Source of the DNA: Naegleria gruberi
Taxonomy: Eukaryota
Assembly: GCA_000004985.1 (NCBI GenBank)
Contig: GG738853.1
Reading direction: 5' to 3' (one strand)
DNA: 64,000 nt
The translations under genes and the position numbers were made by a program. A model generated the notes under the pieces. The model had not been told where the DNA came from, searched no databases, and worked only from the letters and a program-made list of their open reading frames with translations. The number at the start of each line of letters is the position of its first letter. Within the stretch, counting starts at the first letter, position 1. Below, piece by piece: positions 4,977 to 49,349 of the stretch.

Positions 4977-6737
4977 TTATTCATTATCACTGTCGTTGTA
5001 TTCTCTTCTCTTTTTACTTTCAGGTTCTTCGAGTGTAGAATCGTGGTTTTGTTTCATCATTTCTTTCAAAGCCATTGTTGCAGCCATTTGTGCTATTCCA
5101 ACTGCCTTTTCTTGTTCTTGTTTAAAGTATTCGGTTGGTGTTTGTGGACCTAGTTGATTTTGAGGAGCTGTCTCTTTTCTTGGCTTTGAGAGAGCAGCAT
5201 TGGTTGTTCTCATAATTGATGAGGTGTAACCATCCCAGATTTGATCAGTACCAACAGATGAGCCTTCTTGTGTTTCACTATCTTCATTCCATGAGGCAAT
5301 AACTTTGGTCATTTCAATACCTGGAGCAATGTTAGTTTTTTCTCTCTTTGCCTTTTCTCTTTCTTTCTGTTCAAAGTATTGTGGATTAATTGTAGAAACT
5401 TTGAGATGTTTCTCTGCTCTATCAACTGGAATGAGTTCACCAGTTTTTTTATCCTTAAACATGAGAGGTGTGGATGATTTGACACCTTTTTGAGGTTGAT
5501 AAGTTCTGGCAAATCTACTCGGATCTAACTCTTCCTCATCCTCATCTTCATCATTCATACGGTTTTCTTCTTGTATATCTGTAAAGGTTGGTTCTGCAGG
5601 ATTAACATTTTCATCTTCGTTTGTTTCCATTTGATTCATATCTGAATCAGCAAATCCACTTGGATACATATTTTCATAAATATTTTCCTCTGGTTCTACA
5701 AATTCTTGTTCATTGATTTCCTCTTCCTCTTCCTCGTCGTCCATTTCAATTTCATTAATATCTTCATCAAAATCTATTGTCTGTACTACAATAAAGTCTT
5801 GCCAGTCAATCATGTCGAATACTGATTTGTCTTCATCTCTACCAAGTTGTTCCTTTCTTTGATTTTCTTCTTGTATCAATTCCCATTCAGCTTTCTGAAG
5901 GAGCATATCGAGTACTTGTAATTTCTTATCACTATCTGAGAACATGTTGAGATATTTAAAGATGTGATCTTCTGGCTTAACTGAAATTTGTTGAAGTTCA
6001 GAATTTGGATTATTTGGAATGTTATTTTCTTGATTGTACTTTTGAATTTGCATTGGTGTTAATCGGTCTGGGTGGATAATTCCAGTATAGATATCTACAA
6101 GCTTTGTGAAAAAGTGAAAGTGTCTGTGATTAGGCTTTAAAAAATCAAATTGAGGATTACTACTTTCCAAAGATGCAATTTCGAACATAAATTGCTTTCC
6201 ATTAGCAGCTGTATATTGAGCAGTCAATTTGATAATATCCAATTCTAAAGGTTTAATCGAGGAAGGAATTGTTGTATCATAGAAATATTCGAATGGGTCC
6301 CTAGTTGGTTTTTCTCGAGATCTGTTCATGTAAAATGCAACAGAGGCACTCTTAGATATGTTTCCAACAGTAATTTCCGACTTTTCTGATTTTAATGTTT
6401 CAAAATCGTCATCATCATCTTTAAATTCATCATTCTCAAATTCCTCTTCCAAGGTTTTAAATTTCTTTAATTTTTCCACAATATGTTTATAATACTTGTT
6501 GTATGGATTTTCTGGGAGGAGGAAATTAAATGTATTTTCATTACTTGACAAGAGTTGTTTCTCGGGAATTTTACTAGATACAATATGTTCTGCGGTAACT
6601 TCAATGGTCCTCTTCAATGCTGGAGGTGGAATAATAATTCCAATCTTTTTAGAATCGGTTGCTAATTCCGAAGATGATCCAAGACCACCGATCAGTGTAT
6701 TGTTATTAGTGTGGGATGAAGGGTGAGGATTTTGCAT
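4977..6737 (-). CDS. Splicing factor 3a subunit 1 (SF3A1/Prp21) homolog.
   Basis: A 586-aa protein with two SURP modules (IIPPPALKRTIEVTAEHIVSSKIPEKQ...; LELDIIKLTAQYTAANGKQFMFEIASLESSNPQFDFL) and acidic linker regions. Confidence 0.85.
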   Translation of the reverse strand: MQNPHPSSHTNNNTLIGGLGSSSELATDSKKIGIIIPPPALKRTIEVTAEHIVSSKIPEKQLLSSNENTFNFLLPENPYNKYYKHIVEKLKKFKTLEEEFENDEFKDDDDDFETLKSEKSEITVGNISKSASVAFYMNRSREKPTRDPFEYFYDTTIPSSIKPLELDIIKLTAQYTAANGKQFMFEIASLESSNPQFDFLKPNHRHFHFFTKLVDIYTGIIHPDRLTPMQIQKYNQENNIPNNPNSELQQISVKPEDHIFKYLNMFSDSDKKLQVLDMLLQKAEWELIQEENQRKEQLGRDEDKSVFDMIDWQDFIVVQTIDFDEDINEIEMDDEEEEEEINEQEFVEPEENIYENMYPSGFADSDMNQMETNEDENVNPAEPTFTDIQEENRMNDEDEDEEELDPSRFARTYQPQKGVKSSTPLMFKDKKTGELIPVDRAEKHLKVSTINPQYFEQKEREKAKREKTNIAPGIEMTKVIASWNEDSETQEGSSVGTDQIWDGYTSSIMRTTNAALSKPRKETAPQNQLGPQTPTEYFKQEQEKAVGIAQMAATMALKEMMKQNHDSTLEEPESKKRREYNDSDNE

Positions 6738-8872: not shown

Positions 8873-9964
8873 ATGTCATCAAATCATCACAATTTTGATA
8901 CCAATTTTGATACTGTTCTTGCATTCAACATTTTGAAATTCACTCATCATGAAGAGTGGAGTGTTATCAAGCCATTTCTCATCTCATCTTCATTTAGGAA
9001 TGTATTTGAATCGGAGGAGTTTGCAAAGCAATACTTGTTGAATTGGTTTCAATTATCGGAAGAGGAGATTAATCAATTGGAAAGATTTGGTCTTGAATTT
9101 GGAAGGATTTGGAAAAACAATTCAGAAAATACAGATGAACAACCACAAAAGAAGAGAAAGATGGATCGTGAAATTGTAACAGAGACCTTTTCACCTCCAC
9201 AAACAATGAATGAAATTTTACAAATGTACACCAAACTATTCTATAAAGTAAATCTGGAAAAGACCAAGACACGTATCATTGAAACATTGAATAATTATAA
9301 TAGAGGTGATAGGAATAGTGCAGAAAAGATTTCAGAAATTAAAAAATTGGTTGCCTGTATGGAGTGTGATGAACTGATTGCTCAATCATTCAAACGATTT
9401 GGTAACAATAGTTTGGCAAGTGTTGAGACTAAGGAGAAGGACTTTACATTTAATAGATTAACAGTTCAACAATGTTTTGGAAGAGTGAAAGAAGTTTTTC
9501 TGTTGGATCATGTTGTGGAGGAAAGAGTTACTGATTTTGTTACCAAGAATGAGATTATTGTATTTACAAATATTGGATATCCTCTCTTACTGAAAACAAC
9601 ATTTATTAATGGATATAGTCTTGATCAATCTGAGAATTTATACATTTACTCTCACGAATTATTCAACAATCAGAGAAGAGAAAACATGAGAGTAAGTCAA
9701 TATTCTCAAACTCACAATCAAGAGCTTTTAGATTCACTGAAAACAATACTCCTTTCCAAAAGAGCGAATGAGTTTTTGATAAGAAATGGAGTCAAAGTTC
9801 ATCAAATTGATGATGTAAAACAAGCAATGATTTATGATTTTCTAGAATTGAGTTTTGGAAGTTTCAATTCATCCTTTAGATTGGACAGCTTGGGCTGGAT
9901 TCCTTTTGTAGGAAAGGTTAAGGGTGATGGAGATGATTACGAATCAGACGATTCTGACTATTAG
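8873..9964 (+). CDS. Hypothetical protein (363 aa).
   Basis: A long ORF with an ATG in A-rich context and protein-like composition. I recognise no domain. Confidence 0.45.
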   Translation: MSSNHHNFDTNFDTVLAFNILKFTHHEEWSVIKPFLISSSFRNVFESEEFAKQYLLNWFQLSEEEINQLERFGLEFGRIWKNNSENTDEQPQKKRKMDREIVTETFSPPQTMNEILQMYTKLFYKVNLEKTKTRIIETLNNYNRGDRNSAEKISEIKKLVACMECDELIAQSFKRFGNNSLASVETKEKDFTFNRLTVQQCFGRVKEVFLLDHVVEERVTDFVTKNEIIVFTNIGYPLLLKTTFINGYSLDQSENLYIYSHELFNNQRRENMRVSQYSQTHNQELLDSLKTILLSKRANEFLIRNGVKVHQIDDVKQAMIYDFLELSFGSFNSSFRLDSLGWIPFVGKVKGDGDDYESDDSDY

Positions 9965-10499
9965 AAATAATCAGATTATTCAATAACTCCAGTTTTTCTG
10001 GAGAATAATTGTTTCAAGGTAGAATCAAGTTTATTCAGCAGAAGGAGGGTAACATCTATTCCTTTGAACACTATCTTGTTTCAAATAACAGGATTTACCA
10101 GAATTATTTTCCCAGTAATTATTTAGATACTGATATATTTGTATCATTAGGAATGACTAGCTTTTGTGAAATGTATAGACTTTGGAAAGTGTCAGAATTT
10201 GGATTTGTGGGTATTGTGGTCGATTTGATTGTTTGTTGCTTATTGCCATAATTATTATAATTAAATATCAAATTAAAACTCAGTAAATATAACTCTTACT
10301 ACCTATACGGATATTTATACGTAAACTCATCAATGTTTGGAAAATATTCAATCACATTCATAATACTCCCACAGAGGGGCCATTAAATAAACGAATCTTT
10401 ACAATGTAAGGCAGCAAATCCCTACACGAATCTTAGATAGTCTAAAGATTTGGTCTCAGGTTGTTATTGATATAAGAGACATTAATAAAGTTTCACGTT

Positions 10500-11210: not shown

Positions 11211-11392
11211 TTTTTTAATTAAACCTTTGTGTCACTCCAATCCAAAATCAATAATCTTAATAATTCCTCTAATTTTTATGTTAATAATTCACATCGCCAA
11301 AATTTGAACCTGATAATTTTTAAAAGCAATTCATTAACCTTCGAGAAAATACTAATATATTCAATCATCTCGTAAGATGTATTAGCAAAAAA

Positions 11393-11510
11393 GACTACGG
11401 CACCACAGGTTCCCAAGTTGTCTCCAACCTCAGTACTGATGTGGCTCGACGATGCTTAACTTCTCAAATCGGACGGGATGAGGTGCATTCATCGTGATAT
11501 GGCCGTAGCC
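11393..11510 (-). rRNA. 5S ribosomal RNA gene, copy 1 (minus strand).
   Basis: A 118-nt sequence GGCTACGGCCATATCACGATGAATGCACCTCATCCCGTCCGATTTGAGAAGTTAAGCATCG... forms helix I with its 3' end. It is followed on its own strand by a T6 run (plus 11387..11392). It differs from the copy at 33851 by 1 nt. Confidence 0.9.
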
Positions 11511-11565
11511 ATTCTCTATACTAAATTAAGGTTTATCAAAAGAGTCAGCCTTAAAAGTTTATGCT
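11511..11565 (-). promoter_or_regulatory. Conserved ~55-bp upstream block of the 5S gene, including a CCTTAATTTA box at -21..-12.
   Basis: The -55..-1 region (aaacttttaaggctgactct tttgataaaccttaatttagtatagagaat) is about 85% identical to the upstream region of the second 5S copy. Similarity ends beyond -55. Confidence 0.55.
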
Positions 11566-33795: not shown

Positions 33796-33850
33796 ATCTG
33801 AAACTTTCAAGGTTGACTCTATTGGTAAGCCTTAATTTAAGAAAGTGAAT
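33796..33850 (+). promoter_or_regulatory. Conserved ~55-bp upstream block of 5S copy 2, with a CCTTAATTTA box at 33830..33839.
   Basis: aaactttcaaggttgactct attggtaagccttaatttaagaaagtgaat matches the upstream region of copy 1 closely. Similarity stops beyond -55. Confidence 0.55.
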
Positions 33851-33968
33851 GGCTACGGCCATATCACGATGAATGCACCTCATCCCGTCCGATTTGAGAA
33901 GTTAAGCATCGTCGAGCCACATCAGTACTGAGGTTGGAGACAACTTGGGAACCTGTGGTGCTGTAGTC
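33851..33968 (+). rRNA. 5S ribosomal RNA gene, copy 2 (plus strand).
   Basis: A 118-nt 5S sequence ending ...GGAACCTGTGGTGCTGTAGTC, followed by a T7 terminator at 33969..33975. It is the inverse complement of the 11393..11510 copy apart from one U/C difference in helix I. Confidence 0.9.
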
Positions 33969-34395
33969 TTTTTTTGGTGAAAAATATCAATTCCTTCTTG
34001 AAAATCTGACCTCTCTGAGGGGAACGGCACTTGTTCACACTAAATTTAAAATATTAAAATTTTTACAATTTTTTTTTGGTCAACCAAGATAATTTACTTC
34101 TTAACTCTAAATATTTTTTGTTACAAACTCCTTCTCCACTCAATACCCTTCCTTAAAATGTAAATAAAATATTTTCAAATTTTTTTTTTTTTTTTTAAAA
34201 TGAAATATTTTCTAGCTCTCTAATTTTAATCGTTGCCTTCCCTATCGATCACTACTTCACTATTTAATAAGGTTATAGCACCTACCTACCAAACAAACTA
34301 TGGAGATTCCGAAAATCAAGTCATTTTTGAAAAATTCATTGAATTTACAGATTTATTTTTACAGAGCTCGACAGTTGACTATACAAAGTGCCAAT

Positions 34396-35529
34396 TTAGA
34401 AACACTTTCTGTGAACGATACCTGGGCCGGCATCCTCATATTCTTCCTTCGTTATCCACATCTGTTGGAATGTTGAAAGTGAGGCTAAAATACTGCCTCC
34501 AATCCAGACTGAGTACTTTCTTTCTGGTGGAGCAACAACCTTAATCTTCATTGAGGCAGGAGCCATAGCAGTCAATTCCTTGGTCATTCTTTCAGCAATA
34601 CCTTCGAACATGGTAGTACCACCAGATAAGACAACGTTACCGTACAAGTCCTTTCTGATGTCAATGTCACATTTACCAATTGAGTTGAAAGTAGTTTCAT
34701 GAACACCAGCAGCTTCCATACCAATGAAATTAGGTTGGAACAAGACTTCTGGACATCTGAATCTTTCATTACCAACAGTGATAACATTACCGTCTGGCAA
34801 TTCATATGACTTTTCAACTGAGGATGATTCAGCAGCAACCTTCATTTCAGCTTCAAAGTCCAAAGCAATATAACAGAGCTTTTCCTTAATATCTCTGACA
34901 ATTTCTCTTTCAGCAGTAGTGTTGAATGAGTAACCTCTTTCCATCAAAATCTTCATCAAGTAATCAGTCAAGTCACGACCAGCCAAATCCAATCTCAAGA
35001 TGGCATGTGGCAAGGCATAACCTTCATAAATTGGAACAGTGTGAGAAACACCATCACCAGAGTCCAAAACAATACCAGTAGTTCTACCAGAAGCATACAA
35101 GGACAAGACAGCTTGAATAGCAACATACATTGCTGGAACTGAGAAGGTTTCAAACATGATTTGAGTCATCTTTTCTCTATTGGCCTTTGGATTCAAAGGA
35201 GCTTCAGTCAACAAGACTGGATGTTCTTCTGGAGCAACTCTCAATTCATTGTAGAAAGTGTGATGCCAGATCTTTTCCATATCATCCCAATTGGTAACAA
35301 TACCATGTTCAATTGGATACTTCAAAGTCAAGATACCTCTCTTTGATTGAGCTTCATCACCAACATAGGCATCCTTGTTACCCATACCAACCATGATGGA
35401 CTTTTGCTTTGGTCTACCAATAATTGAAGGGAAGACAGCTCTTGGAGCATCATCACCAGCAAAACCAGCTTTACACATACCAGAACCGTTGTCAACAACG
35501 AGGGCTTGAACGTCTTCACAGAAGGACAT
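34396..35529 (-). CDS. Actin (intronless, divergent isoform).
   Basis: A 377-aa protein about 88% identical to conventional actins throughout ([84 protein letters not shown]...). It has an unusual N-terminus MSFCEDVQ and scattered substitutions. Confidence 0.9.
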
Positions 35530-43083: not shown

Positions 43084-44070
43084 CTATTTATTCTTGATAT
43101 TATTGTAAAAATCTTGTAGTGATTGCCAATACTCAAATGGTAATCCTGTATCGTGCCGTGAAGCATCTCTAACAAAAACACCAACCATATCTCCACGTTC
43201 AATAGTGGGACACATAGCTTCTCTTAAATTAAGTTCACCATTATGAAGTTTTCCACATTTCCAATTTTCTCTCAAATGGGTAAACACTTCATAGGTTAAA
43301 ATGTCAATGCCAAAATAGCAGACAACATCATTTTCATTCTTACATGTTCTCTCCACTTCAAGCATTTGTAACTCCTCCTCTGTTATATAGAGATTGTGAT
43401 TTTCACATTGAATCTTGTTCGGTTTCTCAATAGTAGTCAGAATGGACGTATAAACAACCTCACTCTCCTTCTCCAATACTTGTCCAATCTTTAGCACACC
43501 ATTTGCATACGTATGTTTTTCTGAAATGGTATCCAATGTGACAATAGCCTTATTGAACTTGTTAAAAGCTCTAACAGCATACTGCAAACAACTTTTTCCA
43601 CTTTGAGTCCTCGATGTATAGATATGATCTCCCAACAAGACAATAAATGCCTCATTCTCCTTAATGAATTTATCAGCACAACACAACAATGCATGTCCAA
43701 ATCCAAGTTGTTCCTCCTGTACAATAAAAGTCAGAGTTTTTGAAATTTTCTCAATCATTCTCATCGAATCTTGAATTTCCTTTGCTTTTCCTTCCATAGA
43801 AAAAGCACAAGGCGCATTGAAAAATTCCTCTATAATACTCCTCTGATTTTCCTGCATGACAATACAAACTTGAATATCATCCCATCCGATTTCTGGTTGT
43901 TCTGCAAGTAGCGCCTCCACTGCATGTTCAATAATTATTAATAAAATAGGCTTGCAAAGTTTATCTTTCGGATCAAGGATTGGAAAGAGAGCCTTTGGCA
44001 TGACTTTTGATGCAGGAAACATTCTCGTGCCGTGACCTGCAATAGGTATGATGACTTTGGTGATTGCCAT
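43084..44070 (-). CDS. UTP--glucose-1-phosphate uridylyltransferase of the bacterial GalU type.
   Basis: The N-terminus MAITKVIIPIAGHGTRMFPASKVMPKALFPI matches the GalU/GlmU nucleotidyltransferase signature ([25 protein letters not shown]). LGFGHALLCC also matches. Confidence 0.8.
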   Translation of the reverse strand: MAITKVIIPIAGHGTRMFPASKVMPKALFPILDPKDKLCKPILLIIIEHAVEALLAEQPEIGWDDIQVCIVMQENQRSIIEEFFNAPCAFSMEGKAKEIQDSMRMIEKISKTLTFIVQEEQLGFGHALLCCADKFIKENEAFIVLLGDHIYTSRTQSGKSCLQYAVRAFNKFNKAIVTLDTISEKHTYANGVLKIGQVLEKESEVVYTSILTTIEKPNKIQCENHNLYITEEELQMLEVERTCKNENDVVCYFGIDILTYEVFTHLRENWKCGKLHNGELNLREAMCPTIERGDMVGVFVRDASRHDTGLPFEYWQSLQDFYNNIKNK

Positions 44071-44224
44071 TTTTTTTAAATAATAATTAATTATTAAATT
44101 ATTAATAAATATTAAAGATTACAAATATTTAACAATATTTAAATACTAATTTGTAAACCACGTACTAATATTACACTGTAATATTATTACATTCAACCAT
44201 GTTCCGATTTCTTCTATCAAAAAA

Positions 44225-45157
44225 ATGTCTCTCGATCAAACTTCATCTCCACCACCTCCAGAATCCAACAATTTACTCTCCTGTTGTTCCTTCAATGTTC
44301 ATCACTTCTCCACTGCATACGGAAGGAGTAACCTCACCGAATTATACAAATATTTGCATAAAAACAATTTCGACATTGTCTGCCTGAATGAAGTTTATGA
44401 AGATAGCGAGTATTCTCATCCTCTGAGAGATTTGGTTTATGCATTGAATTCATCATTACCTGAGGAGGTGGAAGTGGCTCGGCCCTATCAATATCGATCT
44501 GGACCCACTAATTATGAATCGAATATTATTCTGAGTAAATATCCAATTCTATTTCAGGAAAAGAAGGATGTTGGAAGAGGTGAAAGATCAGTACTTGGTA
44601 TTAAAATTGATCATCCATTGGTGAGGAATGTATTTGTGACTCATTTGGATCATGTGAGTGAAAATAAGAGAGTGTTACAATTGAAGAGAGTCTTGTCTTT
44701 TATGAAACACTTTATTGATAGGAAATTGGTGGATTATCCAAATGATGAGAATAAGAATTTCATTCTTCTTGGAGATTTTAATTCAATGAGAATGGATGAT
44801 TATACGGATAAGTTTTGGGATTATCTCATTAAGCAGAGAATTCAATATGGTTGGGAAGCTCCAGATACCCAAGTTACCTCCCTATTATTTAATGAACCAA
44901 CAACACCAGAAAGTCACTCCACAGAAGAAGCTGACGAACCTAAACTAAAAATGCCACTCGTGGATTGTTGGAAAGTTTTAAATCCAGATATCATATTTGA
45001 GGGAGAGAAAGGAACTGGTTCTTCAAGACTCGACACTCGAATTGACTATGTCATTAGTAATACTGAATTGCAGCCATATCTCAAACAATCATGGATTGAT
45101 TCCGATGCTTCTGGTATTTCAGATCACCTTCCTGTCGTTGTATTATTTGAGTTTTAA
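44225..45157 (+). CDS. Endonuclease/exonuclease/phosphatase (EEP) family protein.
   Basis: EEP motifs are present: FDIVCLNEV, LLGDFNS, SRIDYVI, SDHLPVVVLF. Confidence 0.7.
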   Translation: MSLDQTSSPPPPESNNLLSCCSFNVHHFSTAYGRSNLTELYKYLHKNNFDIVCLNEVYEDSEYSHPLRDLVYALNSSLPEEVEVARPYQYRSGPTNYESNIILSKYPILFQEKKDVGRGERSVLGIKIDHPLVRNVFVTHLDHVSENKRVLQLKRVLSFMKHFIDRKLVDYPNDENKNFILLGDFNSMRMDDYTDKFWDYLIKQRIQYGWEAPDTQVTSLLFNEPTTPESHSTEEADEPKLKMPLVDCWKVLNPDIIFEGEKGTGSSRLDTRIDYVISNTELQPYLKQSWIDSDASGISDHLPVVVLFEF

Positions 45158-45213
45158 TATAAAATAATTTTGAATCAAAGTAAATTCGATATCAGATACT
45201 GTCAAAAAATTTT

Positions 45214-45294
45214 CGCGGTCTACAGGATTCGAACCTGTGCGGGTCGCCCCAATTGATTTCTAGTCAATCACCTTAACCACTCGGTCAAGACCGC
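45214..45294 (-). tRNA. tRNA-Ser (anticodon AGA), type II tRNA with a long variable arm.
   Basis: The sense strand is GCGGTCTTGACCGAGTGGTTAAGGTGATTGACTAGAAATCAATTGGGGCGACCCGCACAGGTTCGAATCCTGTAGACCGCG. The anticodon loop is CTAGAAA, the T-arm is GGTTCGAATCC, and the discriminator is G. It is nearly identical to metazoan tRNA-Ser(AGA). A T-run follows on its strand (plus 45205..45213). Confidence 0.85.
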
Positions 45295-45539
45295 TTCTCA
45301 TTGCAAGGTATGTATTAAGGGATTCGTTCCGGAATATTCCTGCAACACAAAAATTCAATCAATTTGCCAAATGTGAAAAAACATTTCTCAAAAATAATAC
45401 TCCTCAATCAACAGATTCAGACTGCGGATCGTGATATGAAGACCTGAAAATCATTTTGGATGGGAACAATTTTCCTCTCATTAGAAGTAAACAGTTCTTG
45501 CTTTTTACTGAAGGAATAGCATAAAATCAAAATTTCAGA

Positions 45540-45620
45540 CGCAGACTGCAGGATTCGAACCTACGAAGGTTTCCCCAACAGATTTCAAGTCTGTCGCCTT
45601 AACCACTCGGCCAAGTCTGC
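45540..45620 (-). tRNA. tRNA-Ser (anticodon TGA).
   Basis: The sense strand is GCAGACTTGGCCGAGTGGTTAAGGCGACAGACTTGAAATCTGTTGGGGAAACCTTCGTAGGTTCGAATCCTGCAGTCTGCG. The anticodon loop is CTTGAAA. A T4 run lies downstream on its strand. Confidence 0.85.
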
Positions 45621-45900
45621 TTCATTTCACAGTAATATTAAGGCATTTGTGGAAAAATGTCCTTTCAGCAATTCAAACTCTAACTTTTTTTTGATAGAGG
45701 TCATTTATTGGTCAATCTGAGAAGAGGAAATTAGAATAGCAGAAGAATTGAGAGGTTTTGATGAATATACCTCCATTTCAACCAACTCATTTCATAATTG
45801 TTACCTTTGTGAAGGAAACAAATAAATACCAAAGTGTGCTAAAATAATATGAAATAAAACAATTGTTTCAATCTCAATTTATCTTCAAAGTATTTTGAAA

Positions 45901-46791
45901 ATGCACCTTCCTTTACCATGTGGTTTAAAAATTACCCGAATAGGAAAAAAAATGGCAACAACCGAGAGTACTTTATCATCCACAGAAAAGTGTTGTTGTG
46001 GAGGTGATGATTCATCATCAATGAGCACTTCTTCAACTCCATCAAATAGTATTAGCACAATAGTTGAGCCACACATGGTTGAATACAACTCCCTAACAGG
46101 ATGTAAGGAATTATTTTCTACCAATCCAAAGGTTGTTGTTCCTGGAGCAATCTACATTAAAAACTACATTTCGGAAGAGGAAGAGGAGAGAATTATGAAA
46201 TTAATTGACTCTAAGGCATGGTGCCATGAAATTTGTAGAAGAACACAAATGTATGGCTATACCTATTATCATACAAGACATAATCTTCCAACAATGCAAC
46301 CAGTTAATGAGAGCTCTTCCAATTATCAACATTTGGATTTGAAGGAATTTGATTGGCTTATTGAAAGACTTGTGGAACGGGATGGACTGTACAAGACTGA
46401 TTATGGAAATCCAACACAATGTCTTGTGAATGAATATATTGGAACACAGGGAATTAGTAGTCATGTTGATAATCCTGGTCCGTTTGGAGATATCATCACA
46501 CTGGTTTCACTCAACAAACCAATTTACATGGTTCTGAAATTGGCATCCAATGAGAATATTCAAACTAAGATTCTACTCGAACCAAGAAGTTTATTTGTAA
46601 TGAAAGACGATTCCAGATTCAAATGGAAACATGGAATTACCCATATGAAACAAGTCTACGTCCCAAGCACTGGTGAAACATTAATAAGGGATGAAAATTA
46701 CAGAAGAGTGAGTCTCACCTTTAGATTTATCAAAACAGATGGAACGAAGAAAGTTACAAATGAAGATCCAAACGCTGATGCCTTGTGGTAA
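45901..46791 (+). CDS. AlkB-like Fe(II)/2-oxoglutarate-dependent dioxygenase. The start is ambiguous: ATG at 45901 or 45952.
   Basis: QCLVNEYIGTQGISSHVDNPGPFGDIITLVSLNKPIYM ... RVSLTFRF is the AlkB-homolog double-stranded beta-helix core, with HxD...H and RxS. Confidence 0.7.
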   Translation: MHLPLPCGLKITRIGKKMATTESTLSSTEKCCCGGDDSSSMSTSSTPSNSISTIVEPHMVEYNSLTGCKELFSTNPKVVVPGAIYIKNYISEEEEERIMKLIDSKAWCHEICRRTQMYGYTYYHTRHNLPTMQPVNESSSNYQHLDLKEFDWLIERLVERDGLYKTDYGNPTQCLVNEYIGTQGISSHVDNPGPFGDIITLVSLNKPIYMVLKLASNENIQTKILLEPRSLFVMKDDSRFKWKHGITHMKQVYVPSTGETLIRDENYRRVSLTFRFIKTDGTKKVTNEDPNADALW

Positions 46792-48794: not shown

Positions 48795-49349
48795 TCAAAA
48801 TTCCATTCTCAAACTTCTATACTTTCTTACTATTTTTCCAAGTATATATCCAGAGCAAATTCCTAATAGCAAACTAGTCTTGTCTCCACTGATAAATTGT
48901 AATGCAAATGCTGCGAAACCAATTTCAATTTCTGATCTAGTTTTAAGATAGGAGAGATAGCCCAAAATGATATTACCAAAACCGAGCATGTGTCGATGTT
49001 GGAAGATCTTTCTCGATGGATCTGCAAACATCTTTTTGAAAATCAAATCAATGCAGACATTCACCATCAATAGACTGATCGTGATAGCAATCACTGTGAA
49101 AGATGAATATTCTCTTCTTTGGAAGAGCTTTCCTGATAACCAGAGACCATACAAGCAAATAAGAAGATGAACAACATTCCGATGAAACAAGACACTGCTC
49201 AACACCTTAAAATAATCTCCCTTTTCATAAATTTCAAAATAATTGTGTCCCACCTCATGTTCAATCGGTACAAAGGTGAATAGAATGATCAGTACGACGA
49301 TCATAAACCAAACAAAACTCAAATTTTTCATTTTTTGCCTTAATTTCAT
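48795..49349 (-). CDS. Rhomboid-like polytopic membrane protein, probably catalytically inactive (tentative).
   Basis: FHRNVVHLLICLYGLWLSGKLFQ matches the rhomboid TM2 HxxxN...HLxxN...G motif. The GxSG position reads GFGN and the TM6 His is absent. Confidence 0.4.
   Translation of the reverse strand: MKLRQKMKNLSFVWFMIVVLIILFTFVPIEHEVGHNYFEIYEKGDYFKVLSSVLFHRNVVHLLICLYGLWLSGKLFQRREYSSFTVIAITISLLMVNVCIDLIFKKMFADPSRKIFQHRHMLGFGNIILGYLSYLKTRSEIEIGFAAFALQFISGDKTSLLLGICSGYILGKIVRKYRSLRMEF

What the first reader, a model, noticed from the sequence alone, without database searches (positions are those of the whole stretch)
45214..45643. Shared CCTTAAT(A/T) box ~20 nt upstream of all four RNA polymerase III genes in the window
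Both tRNA-Ser genes have CCTTAATA at -26..-19 and -23..-16. Both 5S genes have CCTTAATTTA at -21..-12. The four genes are otherwise unrelated in flank. This looks like a TATA-like upstream Pol III promoter element used by both type 1 (5S) and type 2 (tRNA) genes. It is comparable to the obligatory upstream TATA of fission yeast or plant Pol III genes. All four genes also end in T-runs.
Basis: seen in the sequence. Interest (0 to 1): 0.5.

Follow-up and report, generated by a model that had tools for sequence, protein, structure and literature searches.

The report
Shared upstream box on Naegleria Pol III genes
Two serine tRNA genes and two 5S rRNA genes of the amoeba Naegleria gruberi all carry CCTTAAT(A/T) about 20 bases before the gene, which looks like a real promoter-proximal signal for RNA polymerase III, but it sits too close to the gene to be an ordinary TATA box and rests on only two or three independent cases.

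Summary
The window is Naegleria gruberi nuclear DNA. CCTTAATA lies at -26..-19 and -23..-16 of the two tRNA-Ser genes, CCTTAATTTA lies at -21..-12 of both 5S genes, and all four genes end in T-runs. The heptamer occurs only four times in about 18.6 kb of non-coding DNA, each time at one of these sites. None of 33 protein-gene upstream regions has it. Aligned on the box, all four also carry AATG 18-22 nt downstream, which suggests a start site about 20 nt after the box.

The claim that the flanks are otherwise unrelated is wrong. The two 5S flanks are about 85% identical from -51 to -12, and the tRNA flanks align better than chance. There are therefore two or three independent cases, with p between about 2e-4 and 0.04.

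Three other Naegleria-type 5S genes lack CCTT. Two of them keep an AAWTT core at -17..-13.

For 5S the A/T part lies at -19..-12, roughly 10 bp nearer the gene than the -30/-24 TATA of fission yeast and plants. My best reading is a species-specific element that positions TFIIIB and Pol III, not a canonical TATA box. A genome-wide survey could not be run.

The parts
45214..45294 (-). tRNA-Ser(AGA) gene. The B box GGTTCGAATCC is exact and the A box TGACCGAGTGG matches 10/11.
45540..45620 (-). tRNA-Ser(UGA) gene. The A box TGGCCGAGTGG and B box GGTTCGAATCC are canonical. It is 63/81 identical to the AGA gene.
11392..11510 (-). 5S rRNA gene, copy 1
   Evidence: 106 bits, model positions 1-120
33851..33969 (+). 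5S rRNA gene, copy 2 (118/119 identical to copy 1)
45313..45320 (-). CCTTAATA box, -26..-19 of tRNA-Ser(AGA)
45636..45643 (-). CCTTAATA box, -23..-16 of tRNA-Ser(UGA)
11522..11531 (-). CCTTAATTTA box, -21..-12 of 5S copy 1
33830..33839 (+). CCTTAATTTA box, -21..-12 of 5S copy 2
45299..45302 (-). AATG at box positions 19-22, with G at -5 of the tRNA. This is the inferred start-site region.
   Evidence: sequence
45623..45626 (-). AATG at box positions 18-21, with G at -3 of the tRNA. This is the inferred start-site region.
11510..11513 (-). AAT followed by G(+1) of 5S copy 1, at box positions 19-22
33848..33851 (+). AAT followed by G(+1) of 5S copy 2, at box positions 19-22
11522..11561 (-). 5S-specific conserved upstream block, -51..-12, which includes the box
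   Evidence: 34/40 identical to copy 2; sequence beyond -56 is at random identity
33800..33839 (+). 5S-specific conserved upstream block, -51..-12, which includes the box
11387..11392 (-). T-run terminator of 5S copy 1
33969..33975 (+). T-run terminator of 5S copy 2
45204..45209 (-). T6 run, 5 nt after tRNA-Ser(AGA)
45529..45532 (-). T4 run, 8 nt after tRNA-Ser(UGA). A second T4 run lies at 45523-45526.

Best explanation
CCTTAAT(A/T) is a gene-external, promoter-proximal element of Naegleria gruberi RNA polymerase III genes. It acts together with the normal internal promoters (A and B boxes in the tRNAs, the internal control region in 5S) and the T-run terminators. It lies on the sense strand with its first C about 21 nt upstream of a conserved AAT|G, which is the inferred start site: G(+1) of 5S, and 3-5 nt before the mature tRNA 5' end. 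I infer that it helps seat the TFIIIB-Pol III complex and fixes the start site.

Because it occupies about -21..-14 rather than -30/-24, it is probably contacted by the promoter-proximal part of the initiation complex (Brf1, Bdp1 or a Pol III subunit) or by a lineage-specific factor, not by TBP in the canonical register.

Shown here: the sequence, its position, its restriction to Pol III genes in this window, and the constant spacing to AATG. Inferred: the start site, the binding factor and the function.
For: - The four boxes are at the stated coordinates.
- They are the only CCTTAAT copies in about 18.6 kb of non-ORF DNA.
- Zero of 33 ORF upstream regions have the box on either strand within 150 nt.
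- The composite pattern CCTTAATW-N9-13-AATG occurs four times against 0.2 expected, and all four are at the Pol III genes.
- Three random intergenic flanks share a positioned 7-mer in only 2.2e-4 of trials.
- The two tRNA genes are old paralogues (63/81 identical, with different stems), so a perfectly kept 8-mer in otherwise poorly alignable flanks points to constraint.
- In the 5S pair, -51..-12 is 85% identical while -11..-4 is 50% and everything beyond is random.
- Across Naegleria lineages the 5S proximal flank is weakly conserved. N. gruberi against N. lovaniensis is 13/20 (p = 7e-4). AA at -17/-16, T at -14 and AT at -2/-1 are invariant in four flanks.
- PMC3369914 reports about 279 dispersed 5S genes in N. 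gruberi, with both an internal control region and an upstream TATA-type box.
Against: - There are only four genes from one window. The 5S pair counts as one case, and the tRNA flanks may share descent. With two independent lineages, a positioned shared 7-mer has p of about 0.03-0.045.
- Three other Naegleria-type 5S genes (L005, L020 from N. lovaniensis, L022) lack CCTTAAT, and L022 has no similarity at all in the flank.
- No tRNA gene from another Naegleria or Willaertia locus could be obtained: about 90 kb of related loci were scanned and none was found.
- No transcription start data and no binding data are available.
Confidence: 0.55

Rival explanations
1. This is a canonical TBP-bound TATA box, as in fission yeast and plant Pol III genes. 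TBP within TFIIIB would bind TTAAT(A/T), and the preceding CC would act like a BRE-type contact for Brf1.
For: - The 3' part is A/T-rich (TTAATA, TTAATTTA).
- It is shared by type 1 and type 2 genes.
- The A/T core is the part conserved in other Naegleria 5S flanks.
- PMC3369914 lists a TATA box for N. gruberi 5S.
- S. pombe and plant tRNA genes use upstream TATA boxes (PMC7279448, PMC2040200).
Against: - Position. The A/T part lies at -19..-12 of 5S and at -24..-16 of the mature tRNA ends, whereas known Pol III TATA boxes lie at -30/-24.
- Moving a TATA box moves the start site with it (Joazeiro et al. 1996, as summarised in PMC7279448). A start about 30 nt after this box would therefore fall inside the genes.
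- The sequence is not TATAAA-like, and it carries an invariant CC.
Confidence: 0.17
2. This is coincidence combined with shared descent, with no function. The two 5S copies inherited one flank, the two neighbouring tRNA-Ser genes inherited another, and the two lineages happen to share a 7-mer in AT-rich DNA.
For: - The 5S flanks are clearly homologous.
- The tRNA flanks align above chance.
- Two random intergenic flanks share a positioned 7-mer in 3-4.5% of trials.
- CCTT is not conserved in other Naegleria 5S flanks.
- The octamer is not over-represented in the window as a whole.
Against: - The tRNA genes differ at 18 of 81 positions, so neutral flanks should be randomised, yet the box is 8/8 identical.
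- The extra AATG lies at the same offset in all four genes.
- No copy lies elsewhere in non-coding DNA or upstream of any of 33 ORFs.
- The box is on the sense strand in all four cases.
Confidence: 0.22
3. The box lies inside a transcribed 5' leader and acts at the RNA level as a processing or protein-binding signal. Transcription would then start further upstream.
For: The box has a fixed distance to the mature 5' ends and is specific to the sense strand. For 5S, the conserved sequence extends to -51.
Against: From general knowledge, eukaryotic 5S rRNA is not known to be made with a long 5' leader, tRNA leaders are usually under 15 nt, and RNase P needs no leader motif. No A/T box is shared by all four genes a further 30 nt upstream.
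Confidence: 0.06

Closest known systems
Upstream TATA element of Schizosaccharomyces pombe Pol III genes (Hamada et al. 2001, cited in PMC2040200; the paper itself is not held)
   Same: It is a gene-external element on genes that also have internal promoters. From memory of Hamada 2001, it is shared by tRNA and 5S genes. It is A/T-rich and lies on the sense strand just upstream of the gene.
   Different: It is centred on -30 and is a true TATA bound by TBP. The Naegleria box spans about -21..-14 from the inferred start site, begins with an invariant CC, and has not been tested for function.
Plant tRNA and 5S upstream elements: TATA-like box at -30/-24 (PMC7279448). From memory, also CAA motifs at the tRNA start site and a -28 TATA-like box, a -12 GC and a -1 C in Arabidopsis 5S genes.
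   Same: The flank has two parts: an upstream box plus a short conserved motif at the start site (here AAT|G).
   Different: The position and sequence of the box differ. The plant elements were shown to matter by in vitro transcription, and nothing has been tested here.
Composite upstream motif of budding-yeast tRNA genes and the start-site element of yeast 5S (from memory: Giuliodori et al. 2003; 5S start-site element at -14..+8)
   Same: These are conserved promoter-proximal sequences between the TFIIIB/TBP site and the start site that modulate initiation.
   Different: The yeast blocks are degenerate statistical preferences, not a sharp 7-8-mer.
TATA box reported for N. gruberi 5S genes in PMC3369914
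   Same: It concerns the same gene family in the same organism, and the paper states that 5S genes have both an internal control region and an upstream TATA box.
   Different: That paper searched for TATAAA-like sequence within 60 bp, gives no sequence or position in its text, and does not mention tRNA genes or a shared CCTTAAT motif.

Membership tests
S. pombe / plant-type upstream TATA box of Pol III genes | A/T-rich TATA-like sequence able to bind TBP | tested here: inconclusive
   TTAATA and TTAATTTA are A/T-rich, but they are not TATAAA-like and follow an invariant CC. Binding cannot be tested with these tools.
S. pombe / plant-type upstream TATA box of Pol III genes | Located at about -30/-24 from the transcription start (PMC7279448, PMC2040200) | tested here: not met
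   The A/T part lies at -19..-12 of 5S position +1 and at -24..-19 and -21..-16 of the mature tRNA ends. A 30-nt spacing would put the start inside the genes.
S. pombe / plant-type upstream TATA box of Pol III genes | Present on both tRNA and 5S genes across the genome | tested here: inconclusive
   The box is on four of four genes in this window. Three other Naegleria-type 5S genes lack the full box.
S. pombe / plant-type upstream TATA box of Pol III genes | Required for transcription and for TFIIIB recruitment | not testable with these tools
   This needs in vitro transcription, reporter assays or ChIP.
Type 2 Pol III genes (tRNA) | Internal A and B boxes and an oligo-T terminator | tested here: met
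   The B box GGTTCGAATCC is exact in both genes. The A box matches 11/11 (UGA) and 10/11 (AGA) against TRGYnnARBGG. T4-T6 runs lie within 12 nt downstream.
Type 1 Pol III genes (5S rRNA) | Full-length 5S with an oligo-T terminator, located outside the rDNA unit | tested here: met
   Rfam scores are 106 and 105 bits over model positions 1-120. T6 and T7 runs lie at the 3' ends. The genes are dispersed among protein genes (PMC3369914 Table S1).
Type 3 (SNAPc-dependent, PSE plus TATA) external promoters | PSE near -55, TATA at -30, and no internal promoter | tested here: not met
   The genes have internal promoters. No element is shared by all four near -55. The box is at the wrong distance.

The most novel reading that the evidence does not exclude
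Naegleria gruberi, and perhaps other Heterolobosea in diverged form, uses a sequence-specific Pol III core promoter element at about -21..-14. That is one helical turn closer to the start site than any known TATA box. The element would be common to 5S and tRNA genes and read by something other than TBP in its usual register. It may work as one half of a bipartite AAGG-N17-CCTT arrangement that brackets the -30 TFIIIB site. It could also help explain how 5S genes are transcribed in an organism where no TFIIIA was found (PMC3369914).
Probability: 0.25. Interest if true: 0.6.

Novelty: new variant of a known kind. Interest (0 to 1): 0.4.

Why it matters
Upstream promoter elements on tRNA and 5S genes with a recognisable consensus are known only from fission yeast and some plants (PMC11547032 abstract, PMC7279448). 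Almost nothing is known about Pol III promoters in Discoba. A sharp motif shared by type 1 and type 2 genes in Naegleria would add a third, very distant lineage. Its unusual distance from the gene would raise the question of which part of the initiation complex reads it. In practical terms it would define a minimal Pol III promoter for guide-RNA or small-RNA expression in Naegleria, including work aimed at the pathogen N. fowleri. If the genome-wide survey fails, the finding reduces to a coincidence between two small gene families.

Tried and rejected
- Exact look-ups of N. gruberi proteins to fetch more of the genome failed, because the assembly is not indexed. The actin look-up gave only a 1.2 kb transcript-like contig.
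- Orthologous and paralogous AlkB loci were fetched from N. lovaniensis, Willaertia magna and metagenomes (L015-L018, L023-L025). They hold no tRNA or 5S gene, and the tRNA-Ser pair is not syntenic.
- A metagenome scan with the 5S loop motif gave 14 loci, of which only one is Naegleria-type (L005). The rest belong to another protist.
- The same pattern found nothing in the GTDB genomes or in IMG/VR.
- Querying the protein database with six-frame translations of the 5S gene, to find spurious ORFs laid over 5S genes, gave three loci. L020 has an assembly gap at -30..-21, and L021 is cut at the 5' end.
- I rejected a shared mobile-element terminus of the Ty3/sigma type, because nothing beyond the 8-mer and short (A)AGG and AATG motifs is shared between the tRNA and 5S flanks.
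- I rejected a general promoter motif, because 0 of 33 ORF upstream regions carry it.
- The extra copy at 49338 is the antisense of a start codon region and is coding.
- No other Pol III-type RNA was found in the window, even at E <= 1.
- Literature searches found no description of CCTTAAT as a Pol III motif and nothing on Naegleria tRNA or snRNA promoters.

Full report
**Identity of the window.** The ORF at 44225-45157 is 100% identical to an NCBI Naegleria gruberi protein on a 695,587-bp scaffold. The neighbouring AlkB-like ORF is also 100% identical to an N. gruberi protein. The window is about 34% G+C and densely packed with long intron-poor ORFs. It is therefore nuclear DNA of the heterolobosean amoeboflagellate N. 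gruberi.

**The genes.** ARAGORN and Rfam agree on four RNA genes:
- tRNA-Ser(AGA), 45214-45294 (-)
- tRNA-Ser(UGA), 45540-45620 (-)
- 5S rRNA, 11392-11510 (-)
- 5S rRNA, 33851-33969 (+)

A permissive Rfam scan at E <= 1 adds no other credible RNA gene. The tRNAs have canonical A and B boxes, and all four genes are followed by T-runs.

| Box | Coordinates | Position relative to gene |
|---|---|---|
| CCTTAATA | 45313-45320 (-) | -26..-19 of tRNA-Ser(AGA) |
| CCTTAATA | 45636-45643 (-) | -23..-16 of tRNA-Ser(UGA) |
| CCTTAATTTA | 11522-11531 (-) | -21..-12 of 5S copy 1 |
| CCTTAATTTA | 33830-33839 (+) | -21..-12 of 5S copy 2 |

The claim that the flanks are otherwise unrelated is wrong. The two 5S flanks are 34/40 identical from -51 to -12. 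They drop to 4/8 at -11..-4 and share AAT at -3..-1. Beyond -56, and downstream of the T-run, identity is at random level. The two tRNA-Ser flanks, when gaps are allowed, align better than random intergenic pairs: a score of 15 against -3.5 +/- 4.9 (p = 0.0016), and p = 0.019 for the part 5' of the box alone. The four genes therefore amount to two or three independent cases, not four.

**Is it more than chance?** Over the whole window the octamer is not enriched, with 10 found against 6.7 expected. Its placement is not random.
- After masking ORFs of 120 codons or more, about 18.6 kb remain. The heptamer occurs there four times, always at these sites.
- The other ten copies lie inside ORFs. 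The copy at 49338 is the antisense of the first codons of ORF 48795-49349.
- None of 33 long-ORF upstream regions (150 nt, either strand) has the heptamer. Fisher p is 1.5e-5 for four cases, 1.4e-4 for three and 1.7e-3 for two.
- Sampling real intergenic 40-mers from the window, three share any 7-mer within 5 nt of the same position in 2.2e-4 of trials. Two do so in 4.5% of trials, or 2.9% if low-complexity words are excluded.

The finding is therefore strong if the tRNA flanks are independent and only suggestive if they are not. Independence, or equivalently constraint, is favoured by one fact. The two tRNA genes differ at 18 of 81 positions, mostly in stems, so they are old paralogues whose neutral flanks should be randomised.

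**Further anatomy.** When the four flanks are aligned on the box, all carry AATG at box positions 19-22, or 18-21 in tRNA-Ser(UGA). In 5S the G of that motif is position +1. In the tRNAs it lies 5 and 3 nt before the mature end. The composite pattern CCTTAATW-N9-13-AATG has four matches in the window against 0.2 expected, and they are these four sites. This points to a start site about 20 nt after the first C of the box, at a pyrimidine/purine step, which would give 3-5 nt tRNA leaders. That start site is an inference, not an observation. All four flanks also have (A)AGG 20-21 nt upstream of the box. AAGG and CCTT are inverted relative to each other, and the midpoint between them falls near -30. 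Statistically this feature is weak.

**Related sequences.**
- The N. gruberi assembly could not be reached.
- The partly syntenic N. lovaniensis locus lacks the tRNA pair.
- About 90 kb of loci from N. lovaniensis, Willaertia magna and environmental samples held no tRNA gene.
- Three further Naegleria-type 5S genes with flanks were recovered: L005 (a metagenome contig, one mismatch from the window 5S), L020 (N. lovaniensis, with a 10-N gap at -30..-21) and L022 (a Logan contig).
- None of the three has CCTTAAT.
- L005 and N. lovaniensis do resemble the N. gruberi proximal flank, at 11/21 and 13/20 identical to copy 2 (p = 0.018 and 7e-4). AA at -17/-16, T at -14, A at -7 and AT at -2/-1 are invariant across these four flanks. 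L022 is unrelated.
- So an A/T core (AAWTT at -17..-13) and the start-site AT|G are conserved in part of the genus, while the CCTT half appears specific to N. gruberi.

**Mechanism.** In S. pombe and plants, the upstream TATA of tRNA genes lies at -30/-24 and recruits TFIIIB through TBP (PMC7279448, PMC2040200). Moving a TATA box moves the start site with it (Joazeiro et al. 1996, as summarised in PMC7279448). Here the A/T part lies at -19..-12 of 5S, whose first base is fixed by helix I pairing and by the Rfam alignment. In the tRNAs it lies at -24..-16 of the mature ends. A canonical spacing would place the start inside the genes. No A/T box is shared by all four genes at -30. The 5S genes have TTTTGATAAA or TATTGGTAAG at -31..-22, but the tRNAs do not.

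I therefore favour a promoter-proximal element that lies within the downstream half of the expected TFIIIB-Pol III footprint and sets the start site. It would be read by a TFIIIB or Pol III subunit, or by a lineage-specific factor (confidence 0.55). The rivals are a canonical TATA box (0.17), chance plus shared descent (0.22) and an RNA-level leader signal (0.06).

**Comparison with what is known.** PMC3369914 reports about 279 dispersed 5S genes in N. gruberi, an internal control region, an upstream TATA box (without giving its sequence in the text) and no detectable TFIIIA. It says nothing about tRNA genes or a shared motif. Text searches found no description of CCTTAAT as a Pol III element and nothing on Naegleria tRNA or snRNA promoters. 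A recent paper states that upstream consensus sequences of tRNA genes are known only from some plants and S. pombe (PMC11547032 abstract). If the box holds up, it is a new variant of a known kind, an upstream Pol III core element, with an unusual sequence and register.

**Verdict.** The reading as a Pol III upstream element is reasonable. The reading as a fission-yeast or plant-type TATA box fails the position test. The sample is tiny and partly non-independent, cross-species support covers only the A/T core, and the decisive genome-wide survey and start-site mapping remain to be done. Interest is 0.4.

Noticed in passing
window 11522-11561 (-) and 33800-33839 (+): There is a 5S-specific conserved upstream block, AAACTTTyAAGGyTGACTCTwTTGrTAArCCTTAATTTA, at -51..-12. 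It is 34/40 identical between the two copies, while sequence beyond it is unrelated. It contains GG(C/T)TGACTC, which loosely resembles a B box. This may matter because no TFIIIA was found in N. gruberi (PMC3369914).
   Followed up: partly
window 11549-11552 (-), 33809-33812 (+), 45661-45664 (-), 45339-45341 (-): (A)AGG lies 20-21 nt upstream of the box in all four genes. AAGG and CCTT are inverted relative to each other, and their midpoint lies near -30 from the inferred start site. The feature is statistically weak for two or three independent flanks.
   Followed up: partly
L001-L004 and L006-L013 (metagenome contigs VFQM/VFQO): These loci carry dispersed 5S genes of another, unidentified protist that shares the CCCGTCCGATTTGAGAAGTTAAGC segment. 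Six of nine flanks have an A/T hexamer starting at -30..-21, the canonical TATA position, and the -10..-1 region is T/C-rich. None has the CCTTAAT box.
   Followed up: partly
L020 10001-10933 (N. lovaniensis PYSW02000026.1): The annotated Kelch-type gene model C9374_006095 (P0062) runs antisense across a 5S gene (10102-10220) and a 10-N assembly gap. The locus sequence does not translate to the recorded protein. This is probably an annotation artefact.
   Followed up: no
window 43084-46791 compared with L015: The NTP-transferase and AlkB-like neighbours are conserved in N. lovaniensis. The EEP phosphatase gene and the two tRNA-Ser genes between them are absent there, so Pol III genes move independently of local synteny.
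   Followed up: partly
L023 and L024 (ENA ERZ929261, run ERR1078381): A protein identical to an N. gruberi paralogue (P0021) is encoded on contigs of this metagenome. N. gruberi or a very close strain is therefore present in that sample, which could be a source of more flanks.
   Followed up: no
window, upstream of most long ORFs (for example 4977-6737, 8873-9964, 43084-44070): Start codons of protein genes are usually preceded by a run of five to ten A residues. A few genes, such as actin at 34396-35529, have a TATAAA-type box about 60-70 nt upstream of the ATG.
   Followed up: no
window 49338-49347 (+): CCTTAATTTC here is the antisense of the first codons (MKLRQ) of ORF 48795-49349. It is a coding coincidence, not a fifth promoter box.
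   Followed up: yes
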